DNA of 64,000 nt. Origin: the human T2T-CHM13v2.0 reference genome, Homo sapiens. Location of the stretch: contig CP086569.2 of assembly GCA_009914755.4 (NCBI GenBank), positions 47,808,001 through 47,872,000 on the forward strand, in the 5' to 3' direction. Positions 1 through 58,139 of the stretch are shown here, one piece after another. Positions within the stretch are counted from its first letter, which is position 1; every line of letters begins with the position of its first letter. The position numbers were made by a program, and so were the translations under genes. The notes under the pieces were generated by a model, which worked only from the letters and a program-made list of their open reading frames with translations, was not told the origin of the DNA and did no database searches.

Positions 1-120
1 TTTTGGATTTTTAGTAGTGACAGCGTTTCACTGTATTGGCCAGGATGGTCTTGATCTCTTCACCTTGTGATCCCCTTGCCTTGGCCTCCAAATTTGCTGG
101 GATTACAGGCCTGAGCCAAG
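1..120 (-). mobile_element. Alu SINE, 5' portion truncated by window edge (unit 1)
   Basis: Reverse-complement Alu body ...ttttagtagtgacagcgtttcactgtattggccaggatggtcttgatctc...gctgggattacaggcctgagccaag. The Alu is primate-specific. Confidence 0.9.
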
Positions 121-685
121 ATCCATATTTTTTAAATGAAAAAAAATTTCAAAGGTACTCTGCTTGGTACAATAATCAAATGTATAAACTGAGGAATAAA
201 ACATAACCATGAAACCTACTTATAACTGCATATGGAAAATACAGAGGATAATTTTTTAAATAACATATTTTGAAAGCCTTAACTAGTAATTTGAAGAGTT
301 GGCATTTGAAAGGCCAGTATGAATATACCTTCAAAGCAGCAACACAGGTTCCCCATGAGAAAAAGCAAACTCAGGGAAAATAAAACCACAAAGGTTCAAT
401 CTCTTCTGACCTTTGAAAGACACAGCACAGACAGTGGTCCTTAGGACGAAGAGCAGGAGACCCCTAATTCCGTCACCATGGCGATAGGGCATAAACATTG
501 CTGGGTGAGGGCACAATCCACATTGTGAGGTCCAACTGCTGCCAGGAAGACAGGAGTGCTTTTACATAGACCGAAAGGTCATTGAAGGCTCAGAGTTTTG
601 TTTCAAGAACTGAATCCCAAGCCCACACGTTATTAGGCTGCGCTTCTTAAAACAAGCTATGAGATGGGAAAAAGGGCACCCACAA

Positions 686-2246
686 ACATACGTATACATT
701 ATGTATACAATAATATACAGTATCATATATATAATATATATAACCTATGTATAATATTGTTTTACATCCTGCATCTTATACTATATATATTGTATAAAAT
801 ATAATAATTGATAATATATAAGTTTTATATTTATATTATATGACATATATTATATATTATAATTTATGATATATATATTATATGTTATATATCATATATA
901 GAATATATTATACGGTTAATATACGTATTAAATATAAATTATATATTATATACATTATATATAATATATCTGTTATATATAATACCCATTATGCATAATA
1001 TATATATTATGTCTATGTTATATATAGTATAAAACAACATATAATAATATATAATTGTATATATAAAAGGTGACATATAATATATATTATATTTTATGAC
1101 ATATGTAATATATATTATATATTATATATAATACGTTGTATGTATAATACCTATATTAAATATATATGATATGACTATGTTATTAATTACATGTCACATG
1201 TGTTATATATTATATATTTTACATACAATATACCGGTTACATACAATATATACTATCTTACCTACAATGTATAATTTATTACATGTAAAATAAAGAATGC
1301 AGTATATTATGTATAATTTATAATATACAATATGTGGAATGTGATATATATAACATATAATATATGATATATGATATACACTATATGATATATAACATAC
1401 AATATATGATACCTAATATATATGGTATACAATATATATTTTATGATATGTATTCTATATGTTTTTTATTCTGTTATATATAACTATTTGAAATTATATA
1501 TAACTGTATAATATTTTATGTAAATATGTAATATAATATATATAACTATATAATATATTATATATAACTTTATATTATGTTATATATACTTTTATAACAT
1601 AATTTACATAAAATATCATAATATAATATGTATTATATTATTTCTTATTACATAATATATATTACATATCACCCAATATAAGTAACATACATAATATTAT
1701 AATATAGATTATATTATGTTATATTAAATATCATATATATCATGTATCATATATTCTATAATATATATTACACATTATATAATATGTATGTTGTCTATTA
1801 TGTGATATATATAACTATATATATAATTATATTATTATACATATAACTAGATAAACGTGTAATTCTACATATTTTCATTTATAATATATAGAATTATGTA
1901 ATCATATATAATTATTTATATTCTATAAAAAATTATATCATTATATAAATTATAATATATAAAAATTAAAATATGTACTTAAAACAGATATATTATATAT
2001 CATATATGATATAGTACCTTTGTTATATATCATAATACATATAAATGTGTATTATGTTATCTATAATTATATAATTTCGTATATAAGATGTATAATATGT
2101 ATTATATATTTTATATGCTATGTAATATATATAGTATATATAAGATGACACAGGATAAATATTATATACTATGACATATAAAATATAAGAGGTTATATGT
2201 TACATATAAGTCATACCACATAAGATGTAATATATATCATATATAA
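686..2246. repeat. AT-rich low-complexity block of unit 1 (~1.56 kb, TA/TATA/TATG-type degenerate)
   Basis: Strongly A+T-dominated sequence made of TA-rich words with many short AT palindromes (e.g. tatatcatatatgatata). It is homologous base-for-base to the blocks in the other units, so it is not a freely slipping pure microsatellite. Confidence 0.85.
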
Positions 2247-2540
<294 letters not shown>

Positions 2541-3105
2541 ATCCATATTTTTTAAATGAAAAAAAATTTCAAAGGTACTCTGCTTGGTACAATAATCAAA
2601 TGTATAAACTGAGGAATAAAACATAACCATGAAACCTACTTATAACTGCATATGGAAAATACAGAGGATAATTTTTTAAATAACATATTTTGAAAGCCTT
2701 AACTAGTAATTTGAAGAGTTGGCATTTGAAAGGCCAGTATGAATATACCTTCAAAGCAGCAACACAGGTTCCCCATGAGAAAAACAAACTCAGGGAAAAT
2801 AAAACCACAAAGGTTCAATCTCTTCTGACCTTTGAAAGACACAGCACAGACAGTGGTCCTTAGGACGAAGAGCAGGAGACCCCTAATTCCGTCACCATGG
2901 CGATAGGGCATAAACATTGCTGGGTGAGGGCACAATCCACATTGTGAGGTCCAACTGCTGCCAGGAAGACAGGAGTGCTTTTACATAGACCGAAAGGTCA
3001 TTGAAGGCTCAGAGTTTTGTTTCAAGAACTGAATCCCAAGCCCACACGTTATTAGGCTGCGCTTCTTAAAACAAGCTATGAGATGGGAAAAAGGGCACCC
3101 ACAAA
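2541..3105. other. Complex, non-repetitive ~565 bp segment of the unit (representative copy)
   Basis: This segment begins right after the Alu: atccatattttttaaatgaaaaaaaatttcaaaggtactctgc ... ccgtcaccatggcgatagggcataaacattgc ... cacacgttattaggctgcgcttcttaaaacaag ... gggcacccacaaacatacg. It has no simple-repeat character and retains several CpGs. The same segment lies in every unit at Alu_end+1 to Alu_end+565. Confidence 0.8.
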
Positions 3106-4665
3106 CATACGTATACATTACGTATATAATAATATACAGTATCATATATATAATATATATAACCTATGTATAATATTGTTTTACATCCTGCATCTTATAC
3201 TATATATATTGTATAAAATATAATAATTGATAATATATAAGTTTTATATTTATACTATATGACATATATTATATATTATAATTTATGATATATATATTAT
3301 ATGTTATATATCATATGTAGAATATATTATACGGTTAATATACGTATTAAATATAAATTATATATTATATACATTATATATAATATATCTGTTATATATA
3401 ATACCCATTATGCATAATATATATATTATGTCTATGTTATATATAGTATAAAACAACATATAATAATATATAATTGTATATATAAAAGGTGACATATAAT
3501 ATATATTATATTTTATGACATATGTAATATATATTATATATTATATATAATACGTTGTATGTATAATACCTATATTAAATATATATGATATGACTATGTT
3601 ATTAATTACATGTCACATGTGTTATATATTATATATTTTACATACAATATACCGGTTACATACAATATATACTATCTTATCTACAATGTATAATTTATTA
3701 CATGTAAAATAAAGAATGCACTATATTATGTATAATTTATAATATACAATATGTGGAATGTGATATATATAACATATAATATATGATATATGATATACAG
3801 TATATGATATATAACATACAATATATGATACCTAATATATATGGTATACAATATATATTTTATGATATGTATTCTATATGTTTTTTATTCTGTTATATAT
3901 AACTATTTGAAATTATATATAACTGTATAATATTTTATGTAAATATGTAATATAATATATATAACTATATAATATATTATATATAACTTTATATTATGTT
4001 ATATATACTTTTATAACATAATTTACATAAAATATCATAATATAATATATATTATATTATTTCTTATTACATAATATATATTACATATCACCCAATATAA
4101 GTAACATACATAATATTATAATATAGATTATATTATGTTATAGTAAATATCATATATATCATGTATCATATATTCTATAATATATATTACACATTATATA
4201 ATATGTATGTTGTTTATTATGTGATATATATAAGTATATATATAATTATATTATTATACATATAACTAGATAAACGTGTAATTCTACATATTTTCATTTA
4301 TAATATATAGAATTATGTAATCATATATAATTATTTATATTCTATAAAAAATTATATCATTATATAAATTATAATATATAAAAATTAAAATATGTACTTA
4401 AAACAGATATATTATATATCATATATGATATAGTACCTTTGTTATATATCATAATACATATAAATGTGTATTATGTTATCTATAATTATATAATTTCGTA
4501 TATAAGATGTATAATATGTATTATATATTTTATATGTTATGTAATATATCTAGTATATATAAGATGACACAGGATAAATATTATACACTATGACATATAA
4601 AATATAAGAGGTTATATGTTACATATAAGTCATACCACATAAGATGTAATATATATCATATATAA
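3106..4665. repeat. AT-rich low-complexity block (unit 2)
   Basis: Homolog of 686-2246. Confidence 0.85.
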
Positions 4666-4959
<294 letters not shown>

Positions 4960-5524
4960 ATCCATATTTTTTAAATGAAAAAAAATTTCAAAGGTACTCT
5001 GCTTGGTACAATAATCAAATGTATAAACTGAGGAATAAAACATAACCATGAAACCTACTTATAACTGCATATGGAAAATACAGAGGATAATTTTTTAAAT
5101 AACATATTTTGAAAGCCTTAACTAGTAATTTGAAGAGTTGGCATTTGAAAGGCCAGTATGAATATACCTTCAAAGCAGCAACACAGGTTCCCCATGAGAA
5201 AAAGCAAACTCAGGGAAAATAAAACCACAAAGGTTCAATCTCTTCTGACCTTTGAAAGACACAGCACAGACAGTGGTCCTTAGGACGAAGAGCAGGAGAC
5301 CCCTAATTCCGTCACCATGGCGATAGGGCATAAACATTGCTGGGTGAGGGCACAATCCACATTGTGAGGTCCAACTGCTGCCAGGAAGACAGGAGTGCTT
5401 TTACATAGACCGAAAGGTCATTGAAGGCTCAGAGTTTTGTTTCAAGAACTGAATCCCAAGCCCACACGTTATTAGGCTGCGCTTCTTAAAACAAGCTATG
5501 AGATGGGAAAAAGGGCACCCACAA

Positions 5525-7083
5525 ACATACGTATACATTATGTATATAATAATATACAGTATCATATACATAATATATATAACCTATGTATAATATTGTT
5601 TTACATCCTGCATCTTATACTATATATATTGTATAAAATATAATAATTGATAATATATAAGTTTTATATTTATACTATATGACATATATTATATATTATA
5701 ATTTATGATATATATATTATATGTTATATATCATATATAGAATATATTATACGGTTAATATACGTATTAAATATAAATTATATATTATATACATTATATA
5801 TAATATATCTGTTATATATAATACACATTATGCATAATATATATATTATGTCTATGTTATATATAGTATAAAACAACATATAATAATATATAATTGTATA
5901 TATAAAAGGTGACATATAATATATATTATATTTTATGACATATGTAATATATATTATATATTATATATAATACGTTGTATGTATAATACCTATATTAAAT
6001 ATATATGATATCACTATGTTATTAATTACATGTCACATGTGTTATATATTATATATTTTACATACAATATACCGGTTACATACAATATATACTATCTTAC
6101 CTACAATGTATAATTTATTACATGTAAAATAAAGAATGCAGTATATTATGTATAATTTATAATATACAATATGTGGAATGCGATATATATAACATATAAT
6201 ATATGATATATGATATACAGTATATGATATATAACATACAATATATGATACCTAATATATATGGTATACAATATATATTTTATGATATGTATTCTATATG
6301 TTTTTTATTCTGTTATATATAACTATTTGAAATTATATATAACTGTATAATATTTTATGTAAATATGTAATATAATATATATAACTATATAATATATTAT
6401 ATATAAATATATATTATGTTATATATACTTTTATAACATAATTTACATAAAATGTCATAATATAATATAGATTATATTATTTCATATTACATAATATATA
6501 TTGCATATCACCCAATATAAGTAACATACATAATATTATAATATAGATTATATTATGTTATATTAAATGTCATATATATCATGTATCATATATTCTATAA
6601 TATATATTATACATTTTATAATATGTATGTTGTCTATTATGTGATATATATAACTATATATAATTATATTATTATACATATAACTAGATAAACATGTAAT
6701 TCTACATATTTTCATTTATAATATATAGAATTATATAATCATATATAATTATTTATATTCTATAAAAAATTATATCATTATATAAATTATAATATATAAA
6801 AATTATAATACGTACTACAAATATATATATTATATATCATATATGATATAGTACCTTTGTTATATATCATAGTACATATAAATGTGTATTATGTTATCTA
6901 TAATTATATAAATTCATATATAAGATGTATAATATGTATTATATATTATATATGTTATGTAATATATATAGTATATATAAGATGACACAGGATAAATATT
7001 ATATACTATGACATATAAAATATATGAGGTTATATGTTACATATAAGGCATAGCACATAACATGTAATATATATCATCTATAA
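5525..7083. repeat. AT-rich low-complexity block (unit 3)
   Basis: Homolog of 686-2246. Confidence 0.85.
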
Positions 7084-7377
7084 TTTTTTTTTAGACAGAG
7101 TCTTGTCCTGTTGCACAGGATGGAGTACAATGGCGCCATCTTTGCTCACAGCAACATCTGCCTCACGGGTCTAAGCGATTGTCCTCCCTCAACCTCCCAG
7201 GTAGCTGGGACTACACCACACTGGGACTACACCAGCTGCCACCAGGCCTAGCTAATTTTTTGGATTTTTAGTAGTGACAGCGTTTCACTGTATTGGCCAG
7301 GATGGTCTTGATCTCTTCACCTTGTGATCCCCTTGCCTTGGCCTCCAAATTTGCTGGGATTACAGGCCTGAGCCAAG
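7084..7377 (-). mobile_element. Alu SINE (unit 4)
   Basis: Reverse-complement Alu running from a poly-T to ...gcctgagccaag. It is of the ttggatttt subtype. Confidence 0.9.
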
Positions 7378-7942
7378 ATCCATATTTTTTAAATGAAAAA
7401 AAATTTCAAAGGTACTCTGCTTGGTACAATAATCAAATGTATAAACTGAGGAATAAAACATAACCATGAAAGCTACTTATAACTGCATATGGAAAATACA
7501 GAGGATAGTTTTTTAAATAACATATTTTGAAAGCCTTAACTAGCAATTTGAATAGTTGGCATTTGAAAGGACAGTATGAATATACATTCAAAGCAGCAAC
7601 ACAGGTTCCCCATGAGAAAAAGCAAACTCAGGGAAAATAAAACCACAAAGGTTCAATCTCTTCTGATCTTTGAAAGACACAGCACAGACAGTGGTCCTTA
7701 GGAGGAAGAGCGGGAGACCCCTAATTCCGTCACCATGGCGATAGGGCATAAACATTGCTAGGTGAGGGCACAATCCACATTGTGAGGTCCAACTGCTGCC
7801 AGGAAGACAGGAGTGCTTTTACATAGACCGAAAGGTCATTGAAGGCTCAGAGTTTTGTTTCAAGAACTGAATCCCAAGCCCACACGTTATTAGGCTGCGC
7901 TTCTTAAAACAAGTTATGAGATGGGAAAAAGGGCACCCACAA

Positions 7943-9792
<1,850 letters not shown>

Positions 9793-10357
9793 ATCCATAT
9801 TTTTTAAATGAAAAAAAATTTCAAAGGTACTCTGCTTGGTACAATAATCAAATGTACAAACTGAGGAATAAAACATAACCATGAAAGCTACTTATAACTG
9901 CATATGGAAAATACAGAGGATAATTTTTTAAGTAACATATTTTGAAAGCCTTAACTAGTAATTTGAAGAGTTGGCATTTGAAAGGACAGTATGAATATAC
10001 CTCCAAAGCAGCAACACAGGTTCCCCATGAGAAAAAGCAAACTCAGGGAAAATAAAACCACAAAGGTTCAATCTCTTCTGACCTTTGAAAGACACAGCAC
10101 AGACAGTGGTCCTTAGGACGAAGAGCAGGAGACCCCTAATTCCGTCACCATGGCGATAGGGCATAAACATTGCTGGGTGAGGGCACAATCCACATTGTGA
10201 GGTCCAACTGCTGCCAGGAAGACAGGAGTGCTTTTACATAGACCGAAAGGTCATTCAAGGCTCAGAGTTTTGTTTCAAGAACTGAATCCCAAGCCCACAC
10301 GTTATTAGGCTGCGCTTCTTAAAACAAGTTATGAGATGGGAAAAAGGGCACCCACAA

Positions 10358-12205
<1,848 letters not shown>

Positions 12206-12770
12206 ATCCATATTTTTTAAATGAAAAAAAAATTCAAAGGTACTCTGCTTGGTACAATAATCAAATGTATAAACTGAGGAATAAAACATAACCATGAAAG
12301 CTACTTATAACTGCATATGGAAAATACAGAGGATAATTTTTTAATAACATATTTTGAAAGCCTTAACTAGTAATTTGAAGAGTTGGCATTTGAAAGGCCA
12401 GTATGAATATACCTTCAAAGCAGCAACACAGGTTCCCCATGAGAAAAAGCAAACTCAGGGAAAATAAAACCGCAAAGGTTCAATCTCTTCTGACGTATGA
12501 AAGACACAGCACAGACAGTGGTCCTTAGGAGGAAGAGCAGGAGACCCCTAATTCCGTCACCATGGCGATAGGGCATAAACATTGCTGGGTGAGGGCACAA
12601 TCCACATTGTGAGGTCCAACTGCTGCCAGGAAGACAGGAGTGCTTTTACATAGACCGAAAGGTCATTGAAGGCTCAGAGTTTTGTTTCAAGAACTGAATC
12701 CCAAGCCCACACGTTATTAGGCTGCGCTTCTTAAAACAAGTTATGAGATTGGAAAAAGGGCACCCACAAA

Positions 12771-14624
<1,854 letters not shown>

Positions 14625-15189
14625 ATCCATATTTTTTAAATGAAAAAAAATTTCAAAGGTACTCTGCTTGGTACAATAATCAAATGTATAAACTGAGGAA
14701 TAAAACATAACCATGAAACCTACTTATAACTGCATATGGAAAATACAGAGGATAATTTTTTAAATAACATATTTTGAAAGCCTTAACTAGTAATTTGAAG
14801 AGTTGGCATTTGAAAGGCCAGAATGAATATACCTTCAAAGCAGCAACATAGGTTCCCCATGAGAAAAAGCAAACTCAGGGAAAATAAAACCACAAAGGTT
14901 CAATCTCTTCTGACCTTTGAAAGACACAGCACAGACAGTGGTCCTTAGGACGAAGAGCAGGAGACCCCTAATTCCGTCACCATGGCGATAGGGCATAAAC
15001 ACTGCTGGGTGAGGGCACAATCCACATTGTGAGGTCCAACTGCTGCCAGGAAGACAGGAGTGCTTTTACATAGACCGAAAGTTCATTGAAGGCTCAGAGT
15101 TTTGTTTCAAGAACTGAATCCCAAGCCCACACGTTATTAGGCTGCGCTTCTTAAAACAAGTTATGAGATGGGAAAAAGGGCACCCACAA

Positions 15190-17042
<1,853 letters not shown>

Positions 17043-17607
17043 ATCCATATTTTTTAAATGAAAAAAAATTTGAAAGGTACTCTGCTTGGTAGAATAATCA
17101 AATGTATAAACTGAGGAATAAAACATAACCATGAAAGCTACTTATAACTGCATATGGAAAATACAGAGGATAATTTTTTAAATAACATATTTTGAAAGCC
17201 TTAACTAGTAATTTGAAGAGTTGGCATTTGAAAGGACAGTATGAATATACCTTCAAAGCAGCAACACAGGTTCCCCATGAGAAAAAGCAAACTCAGGGAA
17301 AATAAAACCACAAAGGTTCAATCTCTTCTGACCTTTGAAAGACACAGCACAGACAGTGGTCCTTAGGACGAAGAGCAGGAGACCCCTAATTCCGTCACCA
17401 TGGCGATAGGGCATAAACATTGCTGGGGGAGGGCACAATCCACATTGTGAGGTCCAACTGCTGCCAGGAAGACAGGAGTGCTTTTACATAGACCGAAAGG
17501 TCATTGAAGGCTCAGAGTTTTGTTTCAAGAACTGAATCCCAAGCCCACACGTTATTAGGCTGCGCTTCTTAAAACAAGTTATGAGATGGGAAAAAGGGCA
17601 CCTACAA

Positions 17608-19458
<1,851 letters not shown>

Positions 19459-20023
19459 ATCCATATTTTTTAAATGAAAAAAAATTTCAAAGGTACTCTG
19501 CTTGGTACAATAATCAAATGTATAAACTGAGGAATAAAACATAACCATGAAACCTACTTATAACTGCATATGGAAAATACAGAGGATAATTTTTTAAATA
19601 ACATATTTTGAAAGCCTTAACTAGTAATTTGAAGAGTTGGCATTTGAAAGGCCAGTATGAATATACCTTCAAAGCAGCAACACAGGTACCCCATGAGAAA
19701 AAGCAAACTCAGGGAAAATAAAACCACAAAGGTTGAATCTCTTCTGACCTTTGAAAGACACAGCACAGACAGTGGTCCTTAGGACGAAGAGCAGGAGACC
19801 CCTAATTCCGTCACCATGGCGATAGGGCATAAACATTGCTGGGTGAGGGCACAATCCACATTGTGAGGTCCAACTGCTGCCAGGAAGACAGGAGTGCTTT
19901 TACATAGACCAAAAGGTCATTGAAGGCTCAGAGTTTTGTTTCAAGAACTGAATCCCAAGCCCACACGTTATTAGGCTGCGCTTCTTAAACAAGTTATGAG
20001 ATGGGAAAAAGGGCACCTACAAA

Positions 20024-21579
20024 CATAAGTATACATTATGTATATAATAATATACAGTATCATATATATAATATATATAACCCATGTATAATATTGTTTT
20101 ACATCCTGCATCTTATATTATATATATTGTATAAAATATAATAATTGATAATATATAAATTTTATATTTATACAATATGACATATAGTATATATTATAAT
20201 TTATTACATATATAATATATGTTATATATCATATATAGAATATATTATACGGTTAATATACGTATTAAATATAAATTATACATTATATATATTATATAAA
20301 ATATATCTGCTATATATAATACCCATTGTGCATAATATATATATTATGTCTATGTTATATATAGTATAAAACAACATATAATAATATATAATTGTATATA
20401 TAAAACGCGACATATAATATATATTATATTTTATGACATATGTAATATATATTATATATTATATATAATACGTTGTTTGTATAATACCTATAATAAATAT
20501 AAATTATATGACTATGTTATTAATTTCATGTCACATATGTTATATATTATATATTTTACATAGAATATACCGGTTACATACAATATATACTATGTTACCT
20601 ATAATGTATAATTTATTACATGTAAAATAAAGAATGCAATATATTATGTATAATTTATAATATACAATATGTGGAATGTGATATATATAACATATAATAT
20701 ATTATATATGATATACAGTATATGATATATAACATACAATATATGATACCTAATATATATGGTATACAATATATATTTTATGATATGTATTCTATATGTT
20801 TTATATTCTGTTATATATAACTATTTGAAATTATATATAACTGTATAATATTTTATGTAAATATGTAATATAATATATAACTATATAATATATTATATAT
20901 AACTATATATTATGTTATATATACTTTTATAACATAATTTACATAAAATATCATAATATAATATATATTATATTATTTCATATTACATAATATATATTAC
21001 ATATCACCCAATATAAGTAACATACATAATATTATAATATAGATTATATTATGTTATATTAAATATCATATATATCATGTATCATATATTCTATAATATA
21101 TATGATACATTATATAACATGTATGTTGTCTATTATGTGATATATATAACTATATATAATTATATTATTATACATATTACTAGATAAACATGTAATTCTA
21201 CATATTTTCATTTATAATATATAGAATTATATAATCATATATAATTATTTATATTCTATAAAAAATTATATCATTATATAAATTATAATATATAAAAATT
21301 ATAATATGTACTACAAATATATATATTATATATCATATATGATATAGTACCTTTGTTATATATCATAATACATATAAATGTGTATTATGTTATTTATAAT
21401 TATATAATTTCATATATAAGATGTATAATATGTATTATATATTATATATGTTATGTAATATATATAGTATATATAAGATGACACAGGATAAATATTATAT
21501 ACTATGACATATAAAATATATGAGGTTATATGTTACATATAAGGCATAGCACATAACATGTAATATATATCATATATAA
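20024..21579. repeat. AT-rich low-complexity block (unit 9)
   Basis: Homolog of 686-2246. Confidence 0.85.
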
Positions 21580-21872
<293 letters not shown>

Positions 21873-22437
21873 ATCCATATTTTTTAAATGAAAAAAAATT
21901 TCAAAGGTACTCTGCTTGGTACAATAATCAAATGTATAAACTGAGGAATAAAACATAACCATGAAACCTACTTATAACTGCATATGGAAAATACAGAGGA
22001 TAATTTTTTAAATAACATATTTTGAAAGCGTTAACTAGTAATTTGCAGAGTTGGCATTTGAAAGGCCAGTATGAATATACCTTCAAAGCAGCAACACAGG
22101 TTCCCCATGAGAAAAAGCAAACTCAGGGAAAATAAAACCACAAAGGTTCAATCTCTTCTGACCTTTGAAAGACACAGCACAGACAGTGGTCCTTAGGACG
22201 AAGAGCAGGAGACCCCTAATTCCGTCACCATGGCGATAGGGCATAAACATTGCTGGGTGAGGGCACAATCCACATTGTGAGGTCCAACTGCTGCCAGGAA
22301 GACAGGAGTGCTTTTACATAGACCGAAAGGTCATTGAAGGCTCAGAGTTTTGTTTCAAGAACTGAATCCCAAGCCCACACATTATTAGGCTGCGCTTCTT
22401 AAAACAAGTTATGAGATGGGAAAAAGGGCACCTACAA

Positions 22438-24292
<1,855 letters not shown>

Positions 24293-24857: not shown

Positions 24858-26712
<1,855 letters not shown>

Positions 26713-27277
26713 ATCCATATTTTTTAAATGAAAAAAAATTTCAAAGGTACTCTGCTTGGTACAATAATCAAATGTATAAACTGAGGAATAAAACATAACC
26801 ATGAAACCTACTTATAACTGCATATGGAAAATACAGAGGATAATTTTTTAAATAACATATTTTGAAAGCCTTAACTAGTAATTTGAAGAGTTGGCATTTG
26901 AAAGGCCAGTATGAATATACCTTCAAAGCAGCAACACAGGTTCCCCATGAGAAAAAGCAAACTCAGGGAAAATAAAACCACAAAGGTTCAATCTCTTCTG
27001 ACCTTTGAAAGACACAGCACAGACAGTGGTCCTTAGGACGAAGAGCAGGAGACCCCTAATTCCGTCACCATGGCGATAGGGCATAAACATTGCTGGGTGA
27101 GGGCACAATCCACATTGTGAGGTCCAACTGCTGCCAGGAAGACAGGAGTGCTTTTACATAGACCGAAAGGTCATTGAAGGCTCAGAGTTTTGTTTCAAGA
27201 ACTGAATCCCAAGCCCACACGTTATTAGGCTGCGCTTCTTAAAACAAGCTATGAGATGGGAAAAAGGGCACCCACAA

Positions 27278-28838
27278 ACATACGTATACATTATGTATAC
27301 AATAATATACAGTATCATATATATAATATATATAACCTATGTATAATATTGTTTTACATCCTGCATCTTATACTATATATATTGTATAAAATATAATAAT
27401 TGATAATATATAAGTTTTATATTTATATTATATGACATATATTATATATTATAATTTATGATATATATATTATATGTTATATATCATATATAGAATATAT
27501 TATACGGTTAATATACGTATTAAATATAAATTATATATTATATACATTATATATAATATATCTGTTATATATAATACCCATTATGCATAATATATATATT
27601 ATGTCTATGTTATATATAGTATAAAACAACATATAATAATATATAATTGTATATATAAAAGGTGACATATAATATATATTATATTTTATGACATATGTAA
27701 TATATATTATATATTATATATAATACGTTGTATGTATAATACCTATATTAAATATATATGATATGACTATGTTATTAATTACATGTCACATGTGTTATAT
27801 ATTATATATTTTACATACAATATACCGGTTACATACAATATATACTATCTTACCTACAATGTATAATTTATTACATGTAAAATAAAGAATGCAGTATATT
27901 ATGTATAATTTATAATATACAATATGTGGAATGTGATATATATAACATATAATATATGATATATGATATACACTATATGATATATAACATACAATATATG
28001 ATACCTAATATATATGGTATACAATATATATTTTATGATATGTATTCTATATGTTTTTTATTCTGTTATATATAACTATTTGAAATTATATATAACTGTA
28101 TAATATTTTATGTAAATATGTAATATAATATATATAACTATATAATATATTATATATAACTTTATATTATGTTATATATACTTTTATAACATAATTTACA
28201 TAAAATATCATAATATAATATATATTATATTATTTCTTATTACATAATATATATTACATATCACCCAATATAAGTAACATACATAATATTATAATATAGA
28301 TTATATTATGTTATATTAAATATCATATATATCATGTATCATATATTCTATAATATATATTACACATTATATAATATGTATGTTGTCTATTATGTGATAT
28401 ATATAACTATATATATAATTATATTATTATACATATAACTAGATAAACGTGTAATTCTACATATTTTCATTTATAATATATAGAATTATGTAATCATATA
28501 TAATTATTTATATTCTATAAAAAATTATATCATTATATAAATTATAATATATAAAAATTAAAATATGTACTTAAAACAGATATATTATATATCATATATG
28601 ATATAGTACCTTTGTTATATATCATAATACATATAAATGTGTATTATGTTATCTATAATTATATAATTTCGTATATAAGATGTATAATATGTATTATATA
28701 TTTTATATGCTATGTAATATATATAGTATATATAAGATGACACAGGATAAATATTATATACTATGACATATAAAATATAAGAGGTTATATGTTACATATA
28801 AGTCATACCACATAAGATGTAATATATATCATATATAA
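27278..28838. repeat. AT-rich low-complexity block (unit 12)
   Basis: Homolog of 686-2246. Confidence 0.85.
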
Positions 28839-29132
<294 letters not shown>

Positions 29133-29697
29133 ATCCATATTTTTTAAATGAAAAAAAATTTCAAAGGTACTCTGCTTGGTACAATAATCAAATGTGTAAA
29201 CTGAGGAATAAAACATAACCATGAAACCTACTTATAACTGCATATGGAAAATACAGAGGATAATTTTTTAAATAACATATTTTGAAAGCCTTAACTAGTA
29301 ATTTGAAGAGTTGGCATTTGAAAGGCCAGTATGAATATACCTTCAAAGCAGCAACACAGGTTCCCCATGAGAAAAACAAACTCAGGGAAAATAAAACCAC
29401 AAAGGTTCAATCTCTTCTGACCTTTGAAAGACACAGCACAGACAGTGGTCCTTAGGACGAAGAGCAGGAGACCCCTAATTCCGTCACCATGGCGATAGGG
29501 CATAAACATTGCTGGGTGAGGGCACAATCCACATTGTGAGGTCCAACTGCTGCCAGGAAGACAGGAGTGCTTTTACATAGACCGAAAGGTCATTGAAGGC
29601 TCAGAGTTTTGTTTCAAGAACTGAATCCCAAGCCCACACGTTATTAGGCTGCGCTTCTTAAAACAAGCTATGAGATGGGAAAAAGGGCACCCACAAA

Positions 29698-31257
29698 CAT
29701 ACGTATACATTACGTATATAATAATATACAGTATCATATATATAATATATATAACCTATGTATAATATTGTTTTACATCCTGCATCTTATACTATATATA
29801 TTGTATAAAATATAATAATTGATAATATATAAGTTTTATATTTATACTATATGACATATATTATATATTATAATTTATGATATATATATTATATGTTATA
29901 TATCATATGTAGAATATATTATACGGTTAATATACGTATTAAATATAAATTATATATTATATACATTATATATAATATATCTGTTATATATAATACCCAT
30001 TATGCATAATATATATATTATGTCTATGTTATATATAGTATAAAACAACATATAATAATATATAATTGTATATATAAAAGGTGACATATAATATATATTA
30101 TATTTTATGACATATGTAATATATATTATATATTATATATAATACGTTGTATGTATAATACCTATATTAAATATATATGATATGACTATGTTATTAATTA
30201 CATGTCACATGTGTTATATATTATATATTTTACATACAATATACCGGTTACATACAATATATACTATCTTATCTACAATGTATAATTTATTACATGTAAA
30301 ATAAAGAATGCACTATATTATGTATAATTTATAATATACAATATGTGGAATGTGATATATATAACATATAATATATGATATATGATATACAGTATATGAT
30401 ATATAACATACAATATATGATACCTAATATATATGGTATACAATATATATTTTATGATATGTATTCTATATGTTTTTTATTCTGTTATATATAACTATTT
30501 GAAATTATATATAACTGTATAATATTTTATGTAAATATGTAATATAATATATATAACTATATAATATATTATATATAACTTTATATTATGTTATATATAC
30601 TTTTATAACATAATTTACATAAAATATCATAATATAATATATATTATATTATTTCTTATTACATAATATATATTACATATCACCCAATATAAGTAACATA
30701 CATAATATTATAATATAGATTATATTATGTTATAGTAAATATCATATATATCATGTATCATATATTCTATAATATATATTACACATTATATAATATGTAT
30801 GTTGTTTATTATGTGATATATATAAGTATATATATAATTATATTATTATACATATAACTAGATAAACGTGTAATTCTACATATTTTCATTTATAATATAT
30901 AGAATTATGTAATCATATATAATTATTTATATTCTATAAAAAATTATATCATTATATAAATTATAATATATAAAAATTAAAATATGTACTTAAAACAGAT
31001 ATATTATATATCATATATGATATAGTACCTTTGTTATATATCATAATACATATAAATGTGTATTATGTTATCTATAATTATATAATTTCGTATATAAGAT
31101 GTATAATATGTATTATATATTTTATATGTTATGTAATATATCTAGTATATATAAGATGACACAGGATAAATATTATACACTATGACATATAAAATATAAG
31201 AGGTTATATGTTACATATAAGTCATACCACATAAGATGTAATATATATCATATATAA
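29698..31257. repeat. AT-rich low-complexity block (unit 13)
   Basis: Homolog of 686-2246. Confidence 0.85.
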
Positions 31258-31551
<294 letters not shown>

Positions 31552-32116
31552 ATCCATATTTTTTAAATGAAAAAAAATTTCAAAGGTACTCTGCTTGGTA
31601 CAATAATCAAATGTATAAACTGAGGAATAAAACATAACCATGAAACCTACTTATAACTGCATATGGAAAATACAGAGGATAATTTTTTAAATAACATATT
31701 TTGAAAGCCTTAACTAGTAATTTGAAGAGTTGGCATTTGAAAGGCCAGTATGAATATACCTTCAAAGCAGCAACACAGGTTCCCCATGAGAAAAAGCAAA
31801 CTCAGGGAAAATAAAACCACAAAGGTTCAATCTCTTCTGACCTTTGAAAGACACAGCACAGACAGTGGTCCTTAGGACGAAGAGCAGGAGACCCCTAATT
31901 CCGTCACCATGGCGATAGGGCATAAACATTGCTGGGTGAGGGCACAATCCACATTGTGAGGTCCAACTGCTGCCAGGAAGACAGGAGTGCTTTTACATAG
32001 ACCGAAAGGTCATTGAAGGCTCAGAGTTTTGTTTCAAGAACTGAATCCCAAGCCCACACGTTATTAGGCTGCGCTTCTTAAAACAAGCTATGAGATGGGA
32101 AAAAGGGCACCCACAA

Positions 32117-33675
32117 ACATACGTATACATTATGTATATAATAATATACAGTATCATATACATAATATATATAACCTATGTATAATATTGTTTTACATCC
32201 TGCATCTTATACTATATATATTGTATAAAATATAATAATTGATAATATATAAGTTTTATATTTATACTATATGACATATATTATATATTATAATTTATGA
32301 TATATATATTATATGTTATATATCATATATAGAATATATTATACGGTTAATATACGTATTAAATATAAATTATATATTATATACATTATATATAATATAT
32401 CTGTTATATATAATACACATTATGCATAATATATATATTATGTCTATGTTATATATAGTATAAAACAACATATAATAATATATAATTGTATATATAAAAG
32501 GTGACATATAATATATATTATATTTTATGACATATGTAATATATATTATATATTATATATAATACGTTGTATGTATAATACCTATATTAAATATATATGA
32601 TATCACTATGTTATTAATTACATGTCACATGTGTTATATATTATATATTTTACATACAATATACCGGTTACATACAATATATACTATCTTACCTACAATG
32701 TATAATTTATTACATGTAAAATAAAGAATGCAGTATATTATGTATAATTTATAATATACAATATGTGGAATGCGATATATATAACATATAATATATGATA
32801 TATGATATACAGTATATGATATATAACATACAATATATGATACCTAATATATATGGTATACAATATATATTTTATGATATGTATTCTATATGTTTTATAT
32901 TCTGTTATATATAACTATTTGAAATTATATATAACTGTATAATATTTTATGTAAATATGTAATATAATATATATAACTATATAATATATTATATATAAAT
33001 ATATATTATGTTATATATACTTTTATAACATAATTTACATAAAATGTCATAATATAATATAGATTATATTATTTCATATTACATAATATATATTGCATAT
33101 CACCCAATATAAGTAACATACATAATATTATAATATAGATTATATTATGTTATATTAAATGTCATATATATCATGTATCATATATTCTATAATATATATT
33201 ATACATTTTATAATATGTATGTTGTCTATTATGTGATATATATAACTATATATAATTATATTATTATACATATAACTAGATAAACATGTAATTCTACATA
33301 TTTTCATTTATAATATATAGAATTATATAATCATATATAATTATTTATATTCTATAAAAAATTATATCATTATATAAATTATAATATATAAAAATTATAA
33401 TACGTACTACAAATATATATATTATATATCATATATGATATAGTACCTTTGTTATATATCATAGTACATATAAATGTGTATTATGTTATCTATAATTATA
33501 TAAATTCATATATAAGATGTATAATATTTATTATATATTATATATGTTATGTAATATATATAGTATATATAAGATGACACAGGATAAATATTATATACTA
33601 TGACATATAAAATATATGAGGTTATATGTTACATATAAGGCATAGCACATAACATGTAATATATATCATCTATAA
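32117..33675. repeat. AT-rich low-complexity block (unit 14)
   Basis: Homolog of 686-2246. Confidence 0.85.
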
Positions 33676-33969
33676 TTTTTTTTTAGACAGAGTCTTGTCC
33701 TGTTGCACAGGATGGAGTACAATGGCGCCATCTTTGCTCACAGCAACATCTGCCTCACGGGTCTAAGCGATTGTCCTCCCTCAACCTCCCAGGTAGCTGG
33801 GACTACACCACACTGGGACTACACCAGCTGCCACCAGGCCTAGCTAATTTTTTGGATTTTTAGTAGTGACAGCGTTTCACTGTATTGGCCAGGATGGTCT
33901 TGATCTCTTCACCTTGTGATCCCCTTGCCTTGGCCTCCAAATTTGCTGGGATTACAGGCCTGAGCCAAG
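33676..33969 (-). mobile_element. Alu SINE (unit 15)
   Basis: Reverse-complement Alu at the unit period. Confidence 0.9.
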
Positions 33970-34534
33970 ATCCATATTTTTTAAATGAAAAAAAATTTCA
34001 AAGGTACTCTGCTTGGTACAATAATCAAATGTATAAACTGAGGAATAAAACATAACCATGAAAGCTACTTATAACTGCATATGGAAAATACAGAGGATAG
34101 TTTTTTAAATAACATATTTTGAAAGCCTTAACTAGCAATTTGAATAGTTGGCATTTGAAAGGACAGTATGAATATACATTCAAAGCAGCAACACAGGTTC
34201 CCCATGAGAAAAAGCAAACTCAGGGAAAATAAAACCACAAAGGTTCAATCTCTTCTGATCTTTGAAAGACACAGCACAGACAGTGGTCCTTAGGAGGAAG
34301 AGCGGGAGACCCCTAATTCCGTCACCATGGCGATAGGGCATAAACATTGCTAGGTGAGGGCACAATCCACATTGTGAGGTCCAACTGCTGCCAGGAAGAC
34401 AGGAGTGCTTTTACATAGACCGAAAGGTCATTGAAGGCTCAGAGTTTTGTTTCAAGAACTGAATCCCAAGCCCACACGTTATTAGGCTGCGCTTCTTAAA
34501 ACAAGTTATGAGATGGGAAAAAGGGCACCCACAA

Positions 34535-36384
<1,850 letters not shown>

Positions 36385-36949
36385 ATCCATATTTTTTAAA
36401 TGAAAAAAAATTTCAAAGGTACTCTGCTTGGTACAATAATCAAATGTACAAACTGAGGAATAAAACATAACCATGAAAGCTACTTATAACTGCATATGGA
36501 AAATACAGAGGATAATTTTTTAAGTAACATATTTTGAAAGCCTTAACTAGTAATTTGAAGAGTTGGCATTTGAAAGGACAGTATGAATATACCTCCAAAG
36601 CAGCAACACAGGTTCCCCATGAGAAAAAGCAAACTCAGGGAAAATAAAACCACAAAGGTTCAATCTCTTCTGACCTTTGAAAGACACAGCACAGACAGTG
36701 GTCCTTAGGACGAAGAGCAGGAGACCCCTAATTCCGTCACCATGGCGATAGGGCATAAACATTGCTGGGTGAGGGCACAATCCACATTGTGAGGTCCAAC
36801 TGCTGCCAGGAAGACAGGAGTGCTTTTACATAGACCGAAAGGTCATTCAAGGCTCAGAGTTTTGTTTCAAGAACTGAATCCCAAGCCCACACGTTATTAG
36901 GCTGCGCTTCTTAAAACAAGTTATGAGATGGGAAAAAGGGCACCCACAA

Positions 36950-38797
<1,848 letters not shown>

Positions 38798-39362
38798 ATC
38801 CATATTTTTTAAATGAAAAAAAATTTCAAAGGTACTCTGCTTGGTACAATAATCAAATGTATAAACTGAGGAATAAAACATAACCATGAAAGCTACTTAT
38901 AACTGCATATGGAAAATACAGAGGATAATTTTTTAATAACATATTTTGAAAGCCTTAACTAGTAATTTGAAGAGTTGGCATTTGAAAGGCCAGTATGAAT
39001 ATACCTTCAAAGCAGCAACACAGGTTCCCCATGAGAAAAAGCAAACTCAGGGAAAATAAAACCGCAAAGGTTCAATCTCTTCTGACGTATGAAAGACACA
39101 GCACAGACAGTGGTCCTTAGGAGGAAGAGCAGGAGACCCCTAATTCCGTCACCATGGCGATAGGGCATAAACATTGCTGGGTGAGGGCACAATCCACATT
39201 GTGAGGTCCAACTGCTGCCAGGAAGACAGGAGTGCTTTTACATAGACCGAAAGGTCATTGAAGGCTCAGAGTTTTGTTTCAAGAACTGAATCCCAAGCCC
39301 ACACGTTATTAGGCTGCGCTTCTTAAAACAAGTTATGAGATTGGAAAAAGGGCACCCACAAA

Positions 39363-41216
<1,854 letters not shown>

Positions 41217-41781
41217 ATCCATATTTTTTAAATGAAAAAAAATTTCAAAGGTACTCTGCTTGGTACAATAATCAAATGTATAAACTGAGGAATAAAACAT
41301 AACCATGAAACCTACTTATAACTGCATATGGAAAATACAGAGGATAATTTTTTAAATAACATATTTTGAAAGCCTTAACTAGTAATTTGAAGAGTTGGCA
41401 TTTGAAAGGCCAGAATGAATATACCTTCAAAGCAGCAACATAGGTTCCCCATGAGAAAAAGCAAACTCAGGGAAAATAAAACCACAAAGGTTCAATCTCT
41501 TCTGACCTTTGAAAGACACAGCACAGACAGTGGTCCTTAGGACGAAGAGCAGGAGACCCCTAATTCCGTCACCATGGCGATAGGGCATAAACACTGCTGG
41601 GTGAGGGCACAATCCACATTGTGAGGTCCAACTGCTGCCAGGAAGACAGGAGCGCTTTTACATAGACCGAAAGTTCATTGAAGGCTCAGAGTTTTGTTTC
41701 AAGAACTGAATCCCAAGCCCACACGTTATTAGGCTGCGCTTCTTAAAACAAGTTATGAGATGGGAAAAAGGGCACCCACAA

Positions 41782-43634
<1,853 letters not shown>

Positions 43635-44199
43635 ATCCATATTTTTTAAATGAAAAAAAATTTGAAAGGTACTCTGCTTGGTAGAATAATCAAATGTATA
43701 AACTGAGGAATAAAACATAACCATGAAAGCTACTTATAACTGCATATGGAAAATACAGAGGATAATTTTTTAAATAACATATTTTGAAAGCCTTAACTAG
43801 TAATTTGAAGAGTTGGCATTTGAAAGGACAGTATGAATATACCTTCAAAGCAGCAACACAGGTTCCCCATGAGAAAAAGCAAACTCAGGGAAAATAAAAC
43901 CAAAAAGGTTCAATCTCTTCTGATCTTTGAAAGACACAGCACAGACAGTGGTCCTTAGGACGAAGAGCAGGAGACCCCTAATTCCGTCACCATGGCGATA
44001 GGGCAGAAACATTGCTGGGTGAGGGCACAATCCACATTGTGAGGTCCAACTGCTGCCAGGAAGACAGGATTGCTTTTACATAGACCGAAAGGTCATTGAA
44101 GGCTCAGAGTTTTGTTTCAAGGACTGAATCCCAAGCCCACACCTTATTAGGCTGCGCTTCTTAAAACAAGTTATGAGATGGGAAAAAGGGCACCCACAA

Positions 44200-46052
<1,853 letters not shown>

Positions 46053-46617
46053 ATCCATATTTTGTAAATGAAAAAAAATTTCAAAGGTACTCTGCTTGGT
46101 ACAATAATCAAATGTATAAACTGAGGAATAAAACATAACCATGAAAGCTACTTATAACTGCATATGGAAAATACAGAGGATAATTTTTTAAATAACATAT
46201 TTTGAAAGCCTTAACTAGTAATTTGAAGAGTTGGCATTTGAAAGGCCAGTATGAATATACCTTCAAAGCAGCAACACAGGTTCCCCATGAGAAAAAGCAA
46301 ACTCAGGGAAAATAAAACCGCAAAGGTTCAATCTCTTCTGACCTATGAAAGACACAGCACAGACAGTGGTCCTTAGGAGGAAGAGCAGGAGACCCCTAAT
46401 TCCGTCACCATGGCGATAGGGCATAAACATTGCTGGGTGAGGGCACAATCCACATTGTGAGGTCCAACTGCTGCCAGGAAGACAGGAGTGCTTTTACATA
46501 GACCGAAAGGTCATTGAAGGCTCAGAGTTTTGTTTCAAGAACTGAATCCCAAGCCCACACGTTATTAGGCTGCGCTTCTTAAAACAAGTTATGAGATTGG
46601 AAAAAGGGCACCCACAA

Positions 46618-48468
<1,851 letters not shown>

Positions 48469-49033
48469 ATCCATATTTTTTAAATGAAAAAAAATTTCAA
48501 AGGTACTCTGCTTGGTACAATAATCAAATGTATAAACTGAGGAATAAAACATAACCATGAAACCTACTTATAACTGCATATGGAAAATACAGAGGATAAT
48601 TTTTTAAATAACATATTTTGAAAGCCTTAACTAGTAATTTGAAGAGTTGGCATTTGAAAGGCCAGTATGAATATACCTTCAAAGCAGCAACACAGGTTCC
48701 CCATGAGAAAAAGCAAACTCAGGGAAAATAAAACCACAAAGGTTCAATCTCTTCTGACCTTTGAAAGACACAGCACAGACAGTGGTCCTTAGGACGAAGA
48801 GCAGGAGACCCCTAATTCCGTCACCATGGCGATAGGGCATAAACATTGCTGGGGGAGGGCACAATCCACATTGTGAGGTCCAACTGCTGCCAGGAAGACA
48901 GGAGTGCTTTTACATAGACCGAAAGGTCATTGAAGGCTCAGAGTTTTGTTTCAAGAACTGAATCCCAAGCCCACACGTTATTAGGCTGCGCTTCTTAAAA
49001 CAAGTTATGAGATGGGAAAAAGGGCACCTACAA

Positions 49034-50884
<1,851 letters not shown>

Positions 50885-51449
50885 ATCCATATTTTTTAAA
50901 TGAAAAAAAATTTCAAAGGTACTCTGCTTGGTACAATAATCAAATGTATAAACTGAGGAATAAAACATAACCATGAAACCTACTTATAACTGCATATGGA
51001 AAATACAGAGGATAATTTTTTAAATAACATATTTTGAAAGCCTTAACTAGTAATTTGAAGAGTTGGCATTTGAAAGGCCAGTATGAATATACCTTCAAAG
51101 CAGCAACACAGGTACCCCATGAGAAAAAGCAAACTCAGGGAAAATAAAACCACAAAGGTTGAATCTCTTCTGACCTTTGAAAGACACAGCACAGACAGTG
51201 GTCCTTAGGACGAAGAGCAGGAGACCCCTAATTCCGTCACCATGGCGATAGGGCATAAACATTGCTGGGTGAGGGCACAATCCACATTGTGAGGTCCAAC
51301 TGCTGCCAGGAAGACAGGAGTGCTTTTACATAGACCAAAAGGTCATTGAAGGCTCAGAGTTTTGTTTCAAGAACTGAATCCCAAGCCCACACGTTATTAG
51401 GCTGCGCTTCTTAAACAAGTTATGAGATGGGAAAAAGGGCACCTACAAA

Positions 51450-53005: not shown

Positions 53006-53298
<293 letters not shown>

Positions 53299-53863: not shown

Positions 53864-55718
<1,855 letters not shown>

Positions 55719-56283: not shown

Positions 56284-58139
<1,856 letters not shown>

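What the first reader, a model, noticed from the sequence alone, without database searches (positions are those of the whole stretch)
17237..17312. Recombination junction localized to ~75 bp inside unit 8
To the left of ~17236, unit 8 shares private variants with unit 19: tttgatggg at 17018/43610, tttgaaagg at 17071, ggtagaata at 17090 and aaaggacag at 17233. To the right of ~17313 it instead matches unit 21: accacaaagg, tgacctttg and gctgggggagggc at 17424/48850. At those same places unit 19 reads accaaaaagg, tgatctttg and gggcagaaac. Both large homology blocks (A/A2 and B/B2) therefore switch within the same short interval of the complex segment, just after the Alu. This is the footprint of a single crossover or gene-conversion breakpoint.
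Basis: seen in the sequence. Interest (0 to 1): 0.5.

Follow-up and report, generated by a model that had tools for sequence, protein, structure and literature searches.

The report
Unequal-crossover junction in DYZ2 satellite
One 2.4-kb unit of a human-type HSat1B/DYZ2 satellite array is a perfect hybrid of two other units, which is the ordinary and already documented footprint of out-of-register recombination that adds or removes whole repeat units.

Summary
The window holds about 26.5 tandem units of about 2.42 kb. Each unit has an AT-rich stretch, an antisense diverged Alu and a GC-richer part, which matches published descriptors of human DYZ2/HSat1B.

In a three-way alignment, unit 8 (15218-17635) equals unit 19 at all 47 informative sites up to 17236. 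It equals unit 21 at all 9 informative sites from 17311 on. There are no private and no conflicting sites (P about 3e-10). The two exact-match runs overlap only in 17237-17310 (74 bp).

Block A (1-17310) matches 26593-43902, with 7 substitutions. Block B (17237-22737) matches 48663-54163, also with 7 substitutions. The two offsets differ by 4,834 bp, exactly two units.

This marks one out-of-register homologous exchange, not an in-register gene conversion. Two histories fit and the window cannot separate them. One is a 2-unit deletion in the proximal copy of a 13-unit tandem duplication, which I slightly favour. The other is the junction of a later 11-unit tandem duplication.

The interval has no special motif or structure. 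De novo 1-2-unit DYZ2 changes occur about once per Y transmission (PMC12240836). The finding is correct but ordinary, so interest is low.

The parts
15218..17635 (.). Unit 8, the hybrid repeat unit (2,418 bp): left 2,019-2,093 bp of u19 type, right 325-399 bp of u21 type.
   Evidence: (best two-parent mosaic u19 + u21 has 0 mismatches; best single parent u19 has 9).
17237..17310 (.). Breakpoint interval: 74 bp identical in u8, u19 and u21, within which the exchange occurred. It lies in the GC-richer (39% GC) non-Alu part of the unit.
   Evidence: overlap of the two exact-match runs; ninth longest of 57 identity tracts between u19 and u21; no PRDM9 or chi motif, DNA fold z-score -1.3.
1..17310 (.). 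Homology block A, cut by the window start. It matches A2 at offset +26,592 bp (11 units).
   Evidence: 7 substitutions and 0 indels in 17,310 bp.
26593..43902 (.). Homology block A2, the partner of A, ending inside unit 19.
17237..22737 (.). Homology block B. It matches B2 at offset +31,426 bp (13 units).
   Evidence: 7 isolated substitutions up to 22638, then dense differences from 22738..
48663..54163 (.). Homology block B2, the partner of B, starting inside unit 21.
43903..48736 (.). Segment X (4,834 bp = u19 right part + u20 + u21 left part), present between A2 and B2 and absent between A and B. Its placement is ambiguous by the 74-bp identity, so 43829-48662 is equally valid.
   Evidence: Difference of offsets, 31,426 - 26,592 = 4,834. 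It has no near-identical copy in the window: u20's nearest unit has 31 differences, u21 left part 30, u19 right part 7 in 325 bp.
16749..17040 (-). Alu subunit of unit 8, antisense on the + strand. Its 5' end is 197 bp from the breakpoint interval.
   Evidence: sub-threshold hit to mir-1268, which I know to be Alu-derived.
22733..22737 (.). Second switch point, in unit 11: u24-like to the left, u12-like to the right. It is the right end of B/B2 and the probable junction of the 13-unit tandem duplication.

Best explanation
Unit 8 is the hybrid product of one out-of-register homologous exchange inside a DYZ2/HSat1B-type satellite array. The mechanism could be unequal sister-chromatid exchange, intrachromatid loop-out, single-strand annealing or replication template switching. 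These leave the same footprint and cannot be told apart here.

A u19-type unit and a u21-type unit paired two units out of register. The exchange resolved inside a 74-bp stretch where the two are identical (17237-17310).

Favoured history:
1. A 13-unit (31,426 bp) tandem duplication created two copies. The distal copy is 22738-54163, and the junction is the hybrid unit 11.
2. Later, the proximal copy lost 4,834 bp (u19' right part + u20' + u21' left part) through this exchange. That left u8 = u19 left + u21 right and reduced the A/A2 offset to 11 units.

Shown: the hybrid structure, the breakpoint interval, the two offsets and the two-unit register shift. Inferred: the order and direction of events, the molecular pathway, and the human Yq12 or acrocentric origin.
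For: - Clean 47 | 9 partition with no private or conflicting sites, P = 2.6e-10.
- u8 is exactly identical to u19 on the left and to u21 on the right.
- A/A2 has 7 substitutions in 17,310 bp at offset 26,592. B/B2 has 7 substitutions in about 5.5 kb at offset 31,426. The offsets differ by exactly two units.
- u19 carries lineage-private variants along its whole length (20 left, 6 right). u8 has 20 left and only 1 right. So u19 is the intact unit and u8 the recombinant.
- External DYZ2-like copies carry the consensus state at all these sites, so the u19-lineage and u21-lineage alleles are derived.
- Segment X has no near-identical source in the window. That argues against a recent 2-unit gain in the distal copy.
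- Unit 11 is a second clean hybrid of the kind a 13-unit tandem duplication would leave.
- Literature: five de novo DYZ2 structural changes of 2,416-4,839 bp (whole units), about one per Y transmission (PMC12240836). [quoted passage not shown] Localised expansion and contraction of DYZ2 units is also reported (Hallast et al. preprint).
- My inference from the published rate: a 13-unit stretch would be expected to take roughly one or more such hits in the about 500-1,700 generations implied by the block divergences.
Against: - B/B2 is about three times more diverged than A/A2 (7 in 5.4 kb against 7 in 17.2 kb; binomial P = 0.03). A single duplication followed by a deletion predicts equal divergence, so this favours the 11-unit-duplication rival. 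Interlocus gene conversion, reported for 29% of Yq12 de novo SNVs, could over-disperse the counts.
- The start of the proximal copy lies outside the window, so the 13-unit duplication is only half visible.
- The near-identity of u11's right part to u12's right part (4 differences in 2,150 bp) is not predicted by this history. It needs an extra assumption that the two ancestral neighbouring units were already alike.
Confidence: 0.55

Rival explanations
1. The mechanism is the same (one out-of-register homologous exchange between a u19-type and a u21-type unit), but the partners were 11 units apart and the product was a gain. In this history unit 8 is the junction of a younger 11-unit (26,592 bp) tandem duplication. 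Copy 1 runs from about -9281 to 17310 and copy 2 is 17311-43902. This duplication is superimposed on an older 13-unit duplication that had already placed a u21*-u22*-u23* stretch upstream.
For: It explains all offsets equally well. It is the only history that predicts A/A2 to be younger than B/B2, and that is observed: 4.0e-4 against 1.3e-3 differences per bp, P = 0.03. Multi-unit and iterative tandem duplications are reported in Yq12.
Against: It needs two large overlapping duplications in the same 60 kb. In contrast, 1-2-unit changes are the class actually seen de novo, about one per transmission, with none larger among five events. The divergence asymmetry rests on 14 substitutions and could be inflated by gene conversion.
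Confidence: 0.35
2. An out-of-register gene-conversion patch. In this history 17311-22732 was overwritten by the donor 48737-54158, and the two switch points (17237-17310 and 22733-22737) are the ends of one 5.5-kb conversion tract.
For: There are two clean switch points bounding block B. Interlocus gene conversion is reported as frequent in Yq12.
Against: After the supposed tract, the original offset-26,592 homology should resume, and it does not. u11's right part against u22's right part has 38 differences, and u12 against u23 has 48. The A/A2 duplication would have to end inside the tract by coincidence. A 5.5-kb tract is also long for conversion (my own knowledge).
Confidence: 0.04
3. An assembly artefact: a false join or a collapse of two units between the nearly identical copies A...B and A2...B2.
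For: The two copies are 99.9% or more identical, and satellite arrays are hard to assemble. No reads are available to check.
Against: The join lies in only 74 bp of identity between units that differ at 56 sites. Any read of kilobase length would distinguish the u19 and u21 paths, so an overlap-based assembler has no reason to switch there (inference). Copy-specific substitutions on both sides are kept apart cleanly.
Confidence: 0.04
4. There was no recombination. Unit 8 is a plain copy of unit 19, and the nine right-hand differences are independent mutations.
For: Six of the nine right-hand differences are unique to u19.
Against: All nine fall in the last 13% of the unit. u8 also carries u21's exclusive G17428 and is identical to u21 over 399 bp. 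The downstream units follow u22 and u23, not u20 and u21. The offset jumps by two units.
Confidence: 0.01

Closest known systems
Human DYZ2 / HSat1B satellite (Yq12, with smaller arrays on acrocentric short arms)
   Same: - Unit length is 2,412-2,421 bp; the published modal length is 2,413 and the consensus is 2,420.
- Units have an AT-rich simple-repeat part (14% GC), a 5'-truncated diverged AluY and a GC-richer HSATI part.
- GC is 24.5% and CpG density is 1 per 144 bp; published values are 24% and 1 per 150.
- The ACATACG heptamer sits at the HSATI/AT-rich boundary.
- The sequence turns up as tiny contaminant contigs in unrelated bacterial assemblies, as reported for HSat1B.

   Different: No defining feature differs. 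I could not align the window to the published consensus or place it on a chromosome, so Y versus acrocentric origin, and even the species (human versus another great ape), is not established.
De novo whole-unit DYZ2 gains and losses, and unequal exchange in Yq12 (Porubsky et al. 2025, PMC12240836; Rhie et al. T2T-Y; Hallast et al. 2023)
   Same: The register shift of 4,834 bp (two units) lies within the published de novo size range of 2,416-4,839 bp. The hybrid unit is the expected junction of such an event. Nested multi-unit duplications with later small deletions are described for HSat1B sub-arrays (T2T-Y Extended Data Fig. 8 legend).
   Different: This is an old, fixed event inferred from paralogue comparison within one sequence, not an observed transmission. 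Its breakpoint is resolved to 74 bp. I did not find such resolution stated in the passages I read.
NAHR / unequal crossing-over junctions in other tandem arrays (alpha-satellite higher-order repeats, rDNA, minisatellites; Smith 1976 model, from my own knowledge)
   Same: There is a single switch of paralogue-specific variants inside a tract of perfect identity, and the copy-number change is an integer number of units.
   Different: The identity tract is short (74 bp) compared with the several hundred bp usually quoted for meiotic NAHR (my own knowledge). That fits mitotic or sister-chromatid repair pathways better, but this is not tested.

Membership tests
DYZ2 / HSat1B satellite | Tandem unit of about 2.4 kb (modal 2,413 bp, consensus 2,420 bp). 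| tested here: met
   The 26 full units are 2,412-2,421 bp. Published values are in the Hallast et al. preprint.
DYZ2 / HSat1B satellite | [quoted passage not shown] | tested here: met
   The AT-rich part is 14% GC, the Alu 50% and the complex part 39%.
DYZ2 / HSat1B satellite | Base composition of about 24% GC and about 1 CpG per 150 bp. | tested here: met
   The window is 24.5% GC with 1 CpG per 144 bp, against the values.
DYZ2 / HSat1B satellite | ACATACG heptamer at the junction of HSATI and the AT-rich repeat. | tested here: met
   It is present at the expected phase at 24 of 27 unit junctions. The feature is described.
DYZ2 / HSat1B satellite | Direct sequence identity to the published DYZ2 consensus, and a location on Yq12 or an acrocentric short arm. 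| not testable with these tools
   No human genome or DYZ2 consensus is held in any searchable collection. Indirect support: the same sequence occurs at about 98% identity as contaminant-type contigs in 24 metagenome loci and 18 unrelated bacterial assemblies, as reported for HSat1B.
Unequal (out-of-register) homologous exchange junction | A hybrid unit with a single clean switch of paralogue-specific variants. | tested here: met
   The pattern is 47 sites then 9 sites, with 0 conflicts and 0 private sites.
Unequal (out-of-register) homologous exchange junction | Flanking homology changes register by an integer number of repeat units at the switch. | tested here: met
   The offsets are 26,592 and 31,426. 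Their difference, 4,834 bp, equals u19 right part + u20 + u21 left part, which is 2 units.
Unequal (out-of-register) homologous exchange junction | The breakpoint lies in a tract of perfect identity between the partner units. | tested here: met
   The tract is 74 bp, the ninth longest of 57 between u19 and u21.
Unequal (out-of-register) homologous exchange junction | The pre-event allele or the reciprocal product is seen in a relative or another haplotype. | not testable with these tools
   No other human assemblies are available. The hybrid-specific marker pair was found in neither metagenome nor genome contigs, but those are mostly collapsed short-read contigs, so this is uninformative.
In-register gene conversion | No change of spacing, and the original homology resumes beyond the converted patch. 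| tested here: not met
   The register shifts by 4,834 bp. The offset-26,592 homology does not resume after 22737, where u11's right part against u22's right part has 38 differences.

The most novel reading that the evidence does not exclude
The 74-bp interval 17237-17310, about 200 bp beyond the Alu 5' end, could be a preferred site of exchange in DYZ2 units. That would make unit gain and loss in this satellite site-directed rather than random along the unit. Nothing in the window supports this. The other two mosaic units switch at different unit positions: u11 at column 268-272 and u20 at about column 650. The interval has no recombination motif or unusual fold. One third of the unit lies in identity tracts at least this long.
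Probability: 0.03. Interest if true: 0.4.

Novelty: already known. Interest (0 to 1): 0.12.

Why it matters
This is a clean example of how a long satellite array changes copy number. The exchange is resolved to 74 bp. It comes with a reconstructable two-step history and rough dates. Using the published Yq12 rate of 3.86e-7 per bp per generation, the block divergences imply about 500 generations for A/A2 and about 1,650 for B/B2 (inference, valid only if the array is Y-linked).

It does not change what is known. Whole-unit gains and losses in DYZ2 by unequal exchange are documented in T2T assemblies and in pedigrees. Its practical value is as a haplotype-specific structural marker, or as a check on assembly correctness in this array.

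Tried and rejected
1. A recombination-promoting feature at the breakpoint. There is no PRDM9 13-mer or chi-like motif anywhere in the unit. The single-strand DNA fold of 17200-17350 is unremarkable, z = -1.3. The identity tract is only the ninth longest of 57.

2. A shared hotspot across junctions. The other mosaic units (u11, u20) switch at different positions in the unit.

3. A 2-unit gain in the distal copy instead of a loss in the proximal one. An unequal-exchange gain would leave near-identical neighbours. However, u19 against u21 has 56 differences, u18 against u20 has 74 and u20 against u22 has 67. Segment X also has no close source in the window.

4. In-register gene conversion. The offset-26,592 homology does not resume after block B.

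5. The same junction elsewhere. A pattern requiring both G17092 (private to u8/u19) and G17428 (private to u8/u21) gave 0 hits in metagenome contigs and genome contigs. Control scans with a 35-mer from the interval gave 24 and 18 loci. These are mostly collapsed 1-2.5-kb contaminant contigs carrying consensus alleles, so the negative result says little.

6. Rfam on unit 8. It returned only sub-threshold Alu-related hits (mir-1268, DLEU2_6) and no RNA family.

7. Published DYZ2 primers or probe sequences for a direct identity test. I found none in the T2T-Y text.

Full report
**What the window is.** Anchor searches show a tandem repeat with a period of 2,412-2,421 bp along all 64 kb, about 26.5 units.

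Each unit has three parts:
- a very AT-rich part (14% GC);
- an Alu on the minus strand (in u8, 17040 to 16749). A sub-threshold mir-1268 hit lies in the same place;
- a roughly 570-bp GC-richer part (39% GC).

The window is 24.5% GC with one CpG per 144 bp. The heptamer ACATACG sits at the boundary between the GC-richer and AT-rich parts at 24 of 27 unit junctions.

These values match the published description of human DYZ2/HSat1B. That description gives a unit of about 2.4 kb (modal 2,413 bp, consensus 2,420 bp). [quoted passage not shown] GC is 24%, CpG density is 1 per 150 bp, and ACATACG lies at the HSATI/AT-rich intersection (Hallast et al. preprint). [quoted passage not shown]

A 35-mer from the junction interval also occurs as tiny stand-alone contigs in 18 unrelated bacterial assemblies and in 24 metagenome loci, at about 98% identity over the Alu + HSATI part. 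That is the contamination signature the T2T-Y paper reports for HSat1B. I could not align the window to a human genome, so the chromosome (Yq12 or acrocentric) is not established.

**Checking the observation.** In the MAFFT alignment of the 26 full units, u8 differs from u19 at 9 sites and from u21 at 47.
- All 47 sites where u8 = u19 but not u21 lie at or before 17236. All 9 sites where u8 = u21 but not u19 lie at or after 17311.
- No site is private to u8 and none conflicts. The site pattern is 47 ones followed by 9 twos. The probability that such a set sorts perfectly by chance is 2.6e-10.
- By direct string comparison, 15218-17310 is identical to 41810-43902, and 17237-17635 is identical to 48663-49061.
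- The exact run at offset 26,592 is 15062-17310, and the exact run at offset 31,426 is 17237-17756. They overlap only in 17237-17310.
- The best two-parent mosaic for u8 is u19 + u21 with zero mismatches.

- 'aaaggacag' is shared with u4, u5, u15 and u16.
- 'tttgaaagg' recurs elsewhere in every unit.
- 'accacaaagg' and 'tgacctttg' are the majority state of the array.

On the right side only G17428 is exclusive to u8/u21. Still, u8's last 325 bp is identical only to u21. The next units also continue the u21 path: u9 is close to u22 (4 differences) and u10 to u23 (2 differences).

**The larger architecture.**
- Block A (1-17310) matches 26593-43902 with 7 substitutions and no indels.
- Block B (17237-22737) matches 48663-54163 with 7 isolated substitutions. 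Differences become dense from 22738 on.
- The offsets are 11 and 13 units. Their difference, 4,834 bp, is exactly u19 right part + u20 + u21 left part. This segment X is present between A2 and B2 and absent between A and B.
- The right end of B is itself a clean hybrid. u11 is u24-like up to 22732 and u12-like from 22738.

**Which unit is the recombinant.** u19 carries lineage-private variants over its whole length (20 left, 6 right). u8 carries the 20 on the left and only one on the right. External DYZ2-like copies have the consensus allele at all 14 sites checked around the junction, so the u19-type and u21-type alleles are derived. One event that makes u8 from u19-type and u21-type parents explains everything. 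Making u19 and u21 from u8 would need two events ending at the same unit phase.

A recent 2-unit gain in the distal copy is also unlikely, because it would leave near-identical neighbours. None exist: u19/u21 have 56 differences, u18/u20 have 74 and u20/u22 have 67.

**Mechanism.** The change of register by exactly two units, at a single switch inside a tract of perfect identity, is the signature of out-of-register homologous exchange.

In-register gene conversion is excluded by the register shift. An out-of-register conversion patch bounded by the two switch points is disfavoured because the offset-26,592 homology does not resume after 22737. There, u11's right part against u22's right part has 38 differences.

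The interval has no PRDM9 or chi-like motif and no unusual single-strand fold (z = -1.3). It is only the ninth longest of 57 identity tracts between u19 and u21, and a third of the unit lies in tracts at least as long. The other mosaic units switch at other positions (u11 at column 268-272, u20 at about column 650). The location therefore looks arbitrary, and 'just after the Alu' (197 bp away) carries no mechanistic weight.

**Two histories fit.**
- M1: a 13-unit tandem duplication with its junction at u11, followed by a 2-unit deletion in the proximal copy.
- M2: an older 13-unit duplication, followed by a younger 11-unit tandem duplication whose junction is u8. Copy 2 would be 17311-43902.

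M2 alone predicts that A/A2 is younger than B/B2. The data lean that way, with 7 substitutions in 17.2 kb against 7 in 5.4 kb (P = 0.03). The substitutions are isolated, mostly singletons, and balanced between the copies.

Against M2, the class of event seen de novo in pedigrees is the 1-2-unit change. Five structural variants of 2,416-4,839 bp were found, about one per Y transmission (PMC12240836). Frequent interlocus gene conversion in Yq12 could also over-disperse substitution counts (same paper). Scaling that rate to 13 units over the roughly 500-1,650 generations implied by the divergences makes a 2-unit deletion expected. The dating uses the published 3.86e-7 per bp per generation and is my inference.

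I give M1 0.55 and M2 0.35. About 10 kb of upstream sequence would decide between them. Neither history explains why u11's right part and u12's right part differ at only 4 sites while the first 270 bp of u12 are full of private variants.

**Artefact and chance.** A false assembly join would have to occur within 74 bp of identity between units that differ at 56 sites, which any kilobase-long read would resolve. I consider it unlikely (0.04), but it cannot be tested without reads. Independent mutation is excluded by the two-unit register shift, u8's exact identity to u21 on the right, and the u22/u23-like units that follow it.

**Other assemblies.** A pattern requiring both G17092 and G17428 found nothing in metagenome or prokaryotic genome contigs. 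Control scans found the family in both. Those copies are mostly collapsed consensus contigs, so the negative result carries little weight.

**Comparison with what is known, and verdict.** Unequal exchange as the mode of evolution of DYZ1/DYZ2 is already described, as are nested duplications with later small deletions in HSat1B sub-arrays, sister-chromatid exchanges in Yq12 and de novo whole-unit DYZ2 changes.

It is one well-resolved instance of a documented, frequent process. Novelty: already known. Interest: 0.12.

Noticed in passing
window 22466-24885 (switch at 22733-22737): Unit 11 is a second near-perfect hybrid. It is u24-like on the left (1 difference in 273 columns) and u12-like on the right (4 differences in about 2,150). 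It marks the right end of block B/B2 and is probably the junction of a 13-unit tandem duplication.
   Followed up: partly
window 24886-25152 (start of unit 12) versus 22738-24885: The right parts of u11 and u12 are nearly identical, but the first 270 bp or so of u12 carry at least six variants seen in no other unit of the window. Neither proposed history predicts this. It may be an older exchange with a unit outside the window.
   Followed up: no
window 44228-46645 (switch about 44874-44895): Unit 20, which lies inside the segment missing from the proximal copy, is an older mosaic. It is u2/u4-like on the left and u6/u17-like on the right, with about a dozen private changes accumulated since (15 mismatches as a mosaic, against 31 for the best single parent).
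   Followed up: partly
window 1-17310 / 26593-43902 versus 17237-22737 / 48663-54163: The two homology blocks differ about three-fold in divergence (4.0e-4 against 1.3e-3 per bp; binomial P = 0.03). This hints that they may not be the same age.
   Followed up: yes
window 22638 and 54064: This site has three alleles: C in u11, A in u24 and T in all 24 other units. That implies two hits at one position within the B/B2 lineage.
   Followed up: no
loci L025-L042 (genome contigs) and L001-L024 (metagenome contigs): The satellite occurs as short stand-alone contigs (0.3-2.5 kb) in assemblies labelled Mycobacterium, Bifidobacterium, Streptomyces, Alcanivorax and others, and in metagenomes, including two contigs of about 54 kb (BNJT01002008.1 and BNJU01004413.1). 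These are most likely human DNA contamination of those records.
   Followed up: partly
window 53892-63565 (units 24-27): The last four full units have no near-identical partner in the window (at least 36 differences to any other unit). The recently duplicated region therefore ends inside unit 24. Some neighbouring units are moderately alike (u2/u3 19 differences, u9/u10 26, u26/u27 36), which suggests older one-unit duplications.
   Followed up: no
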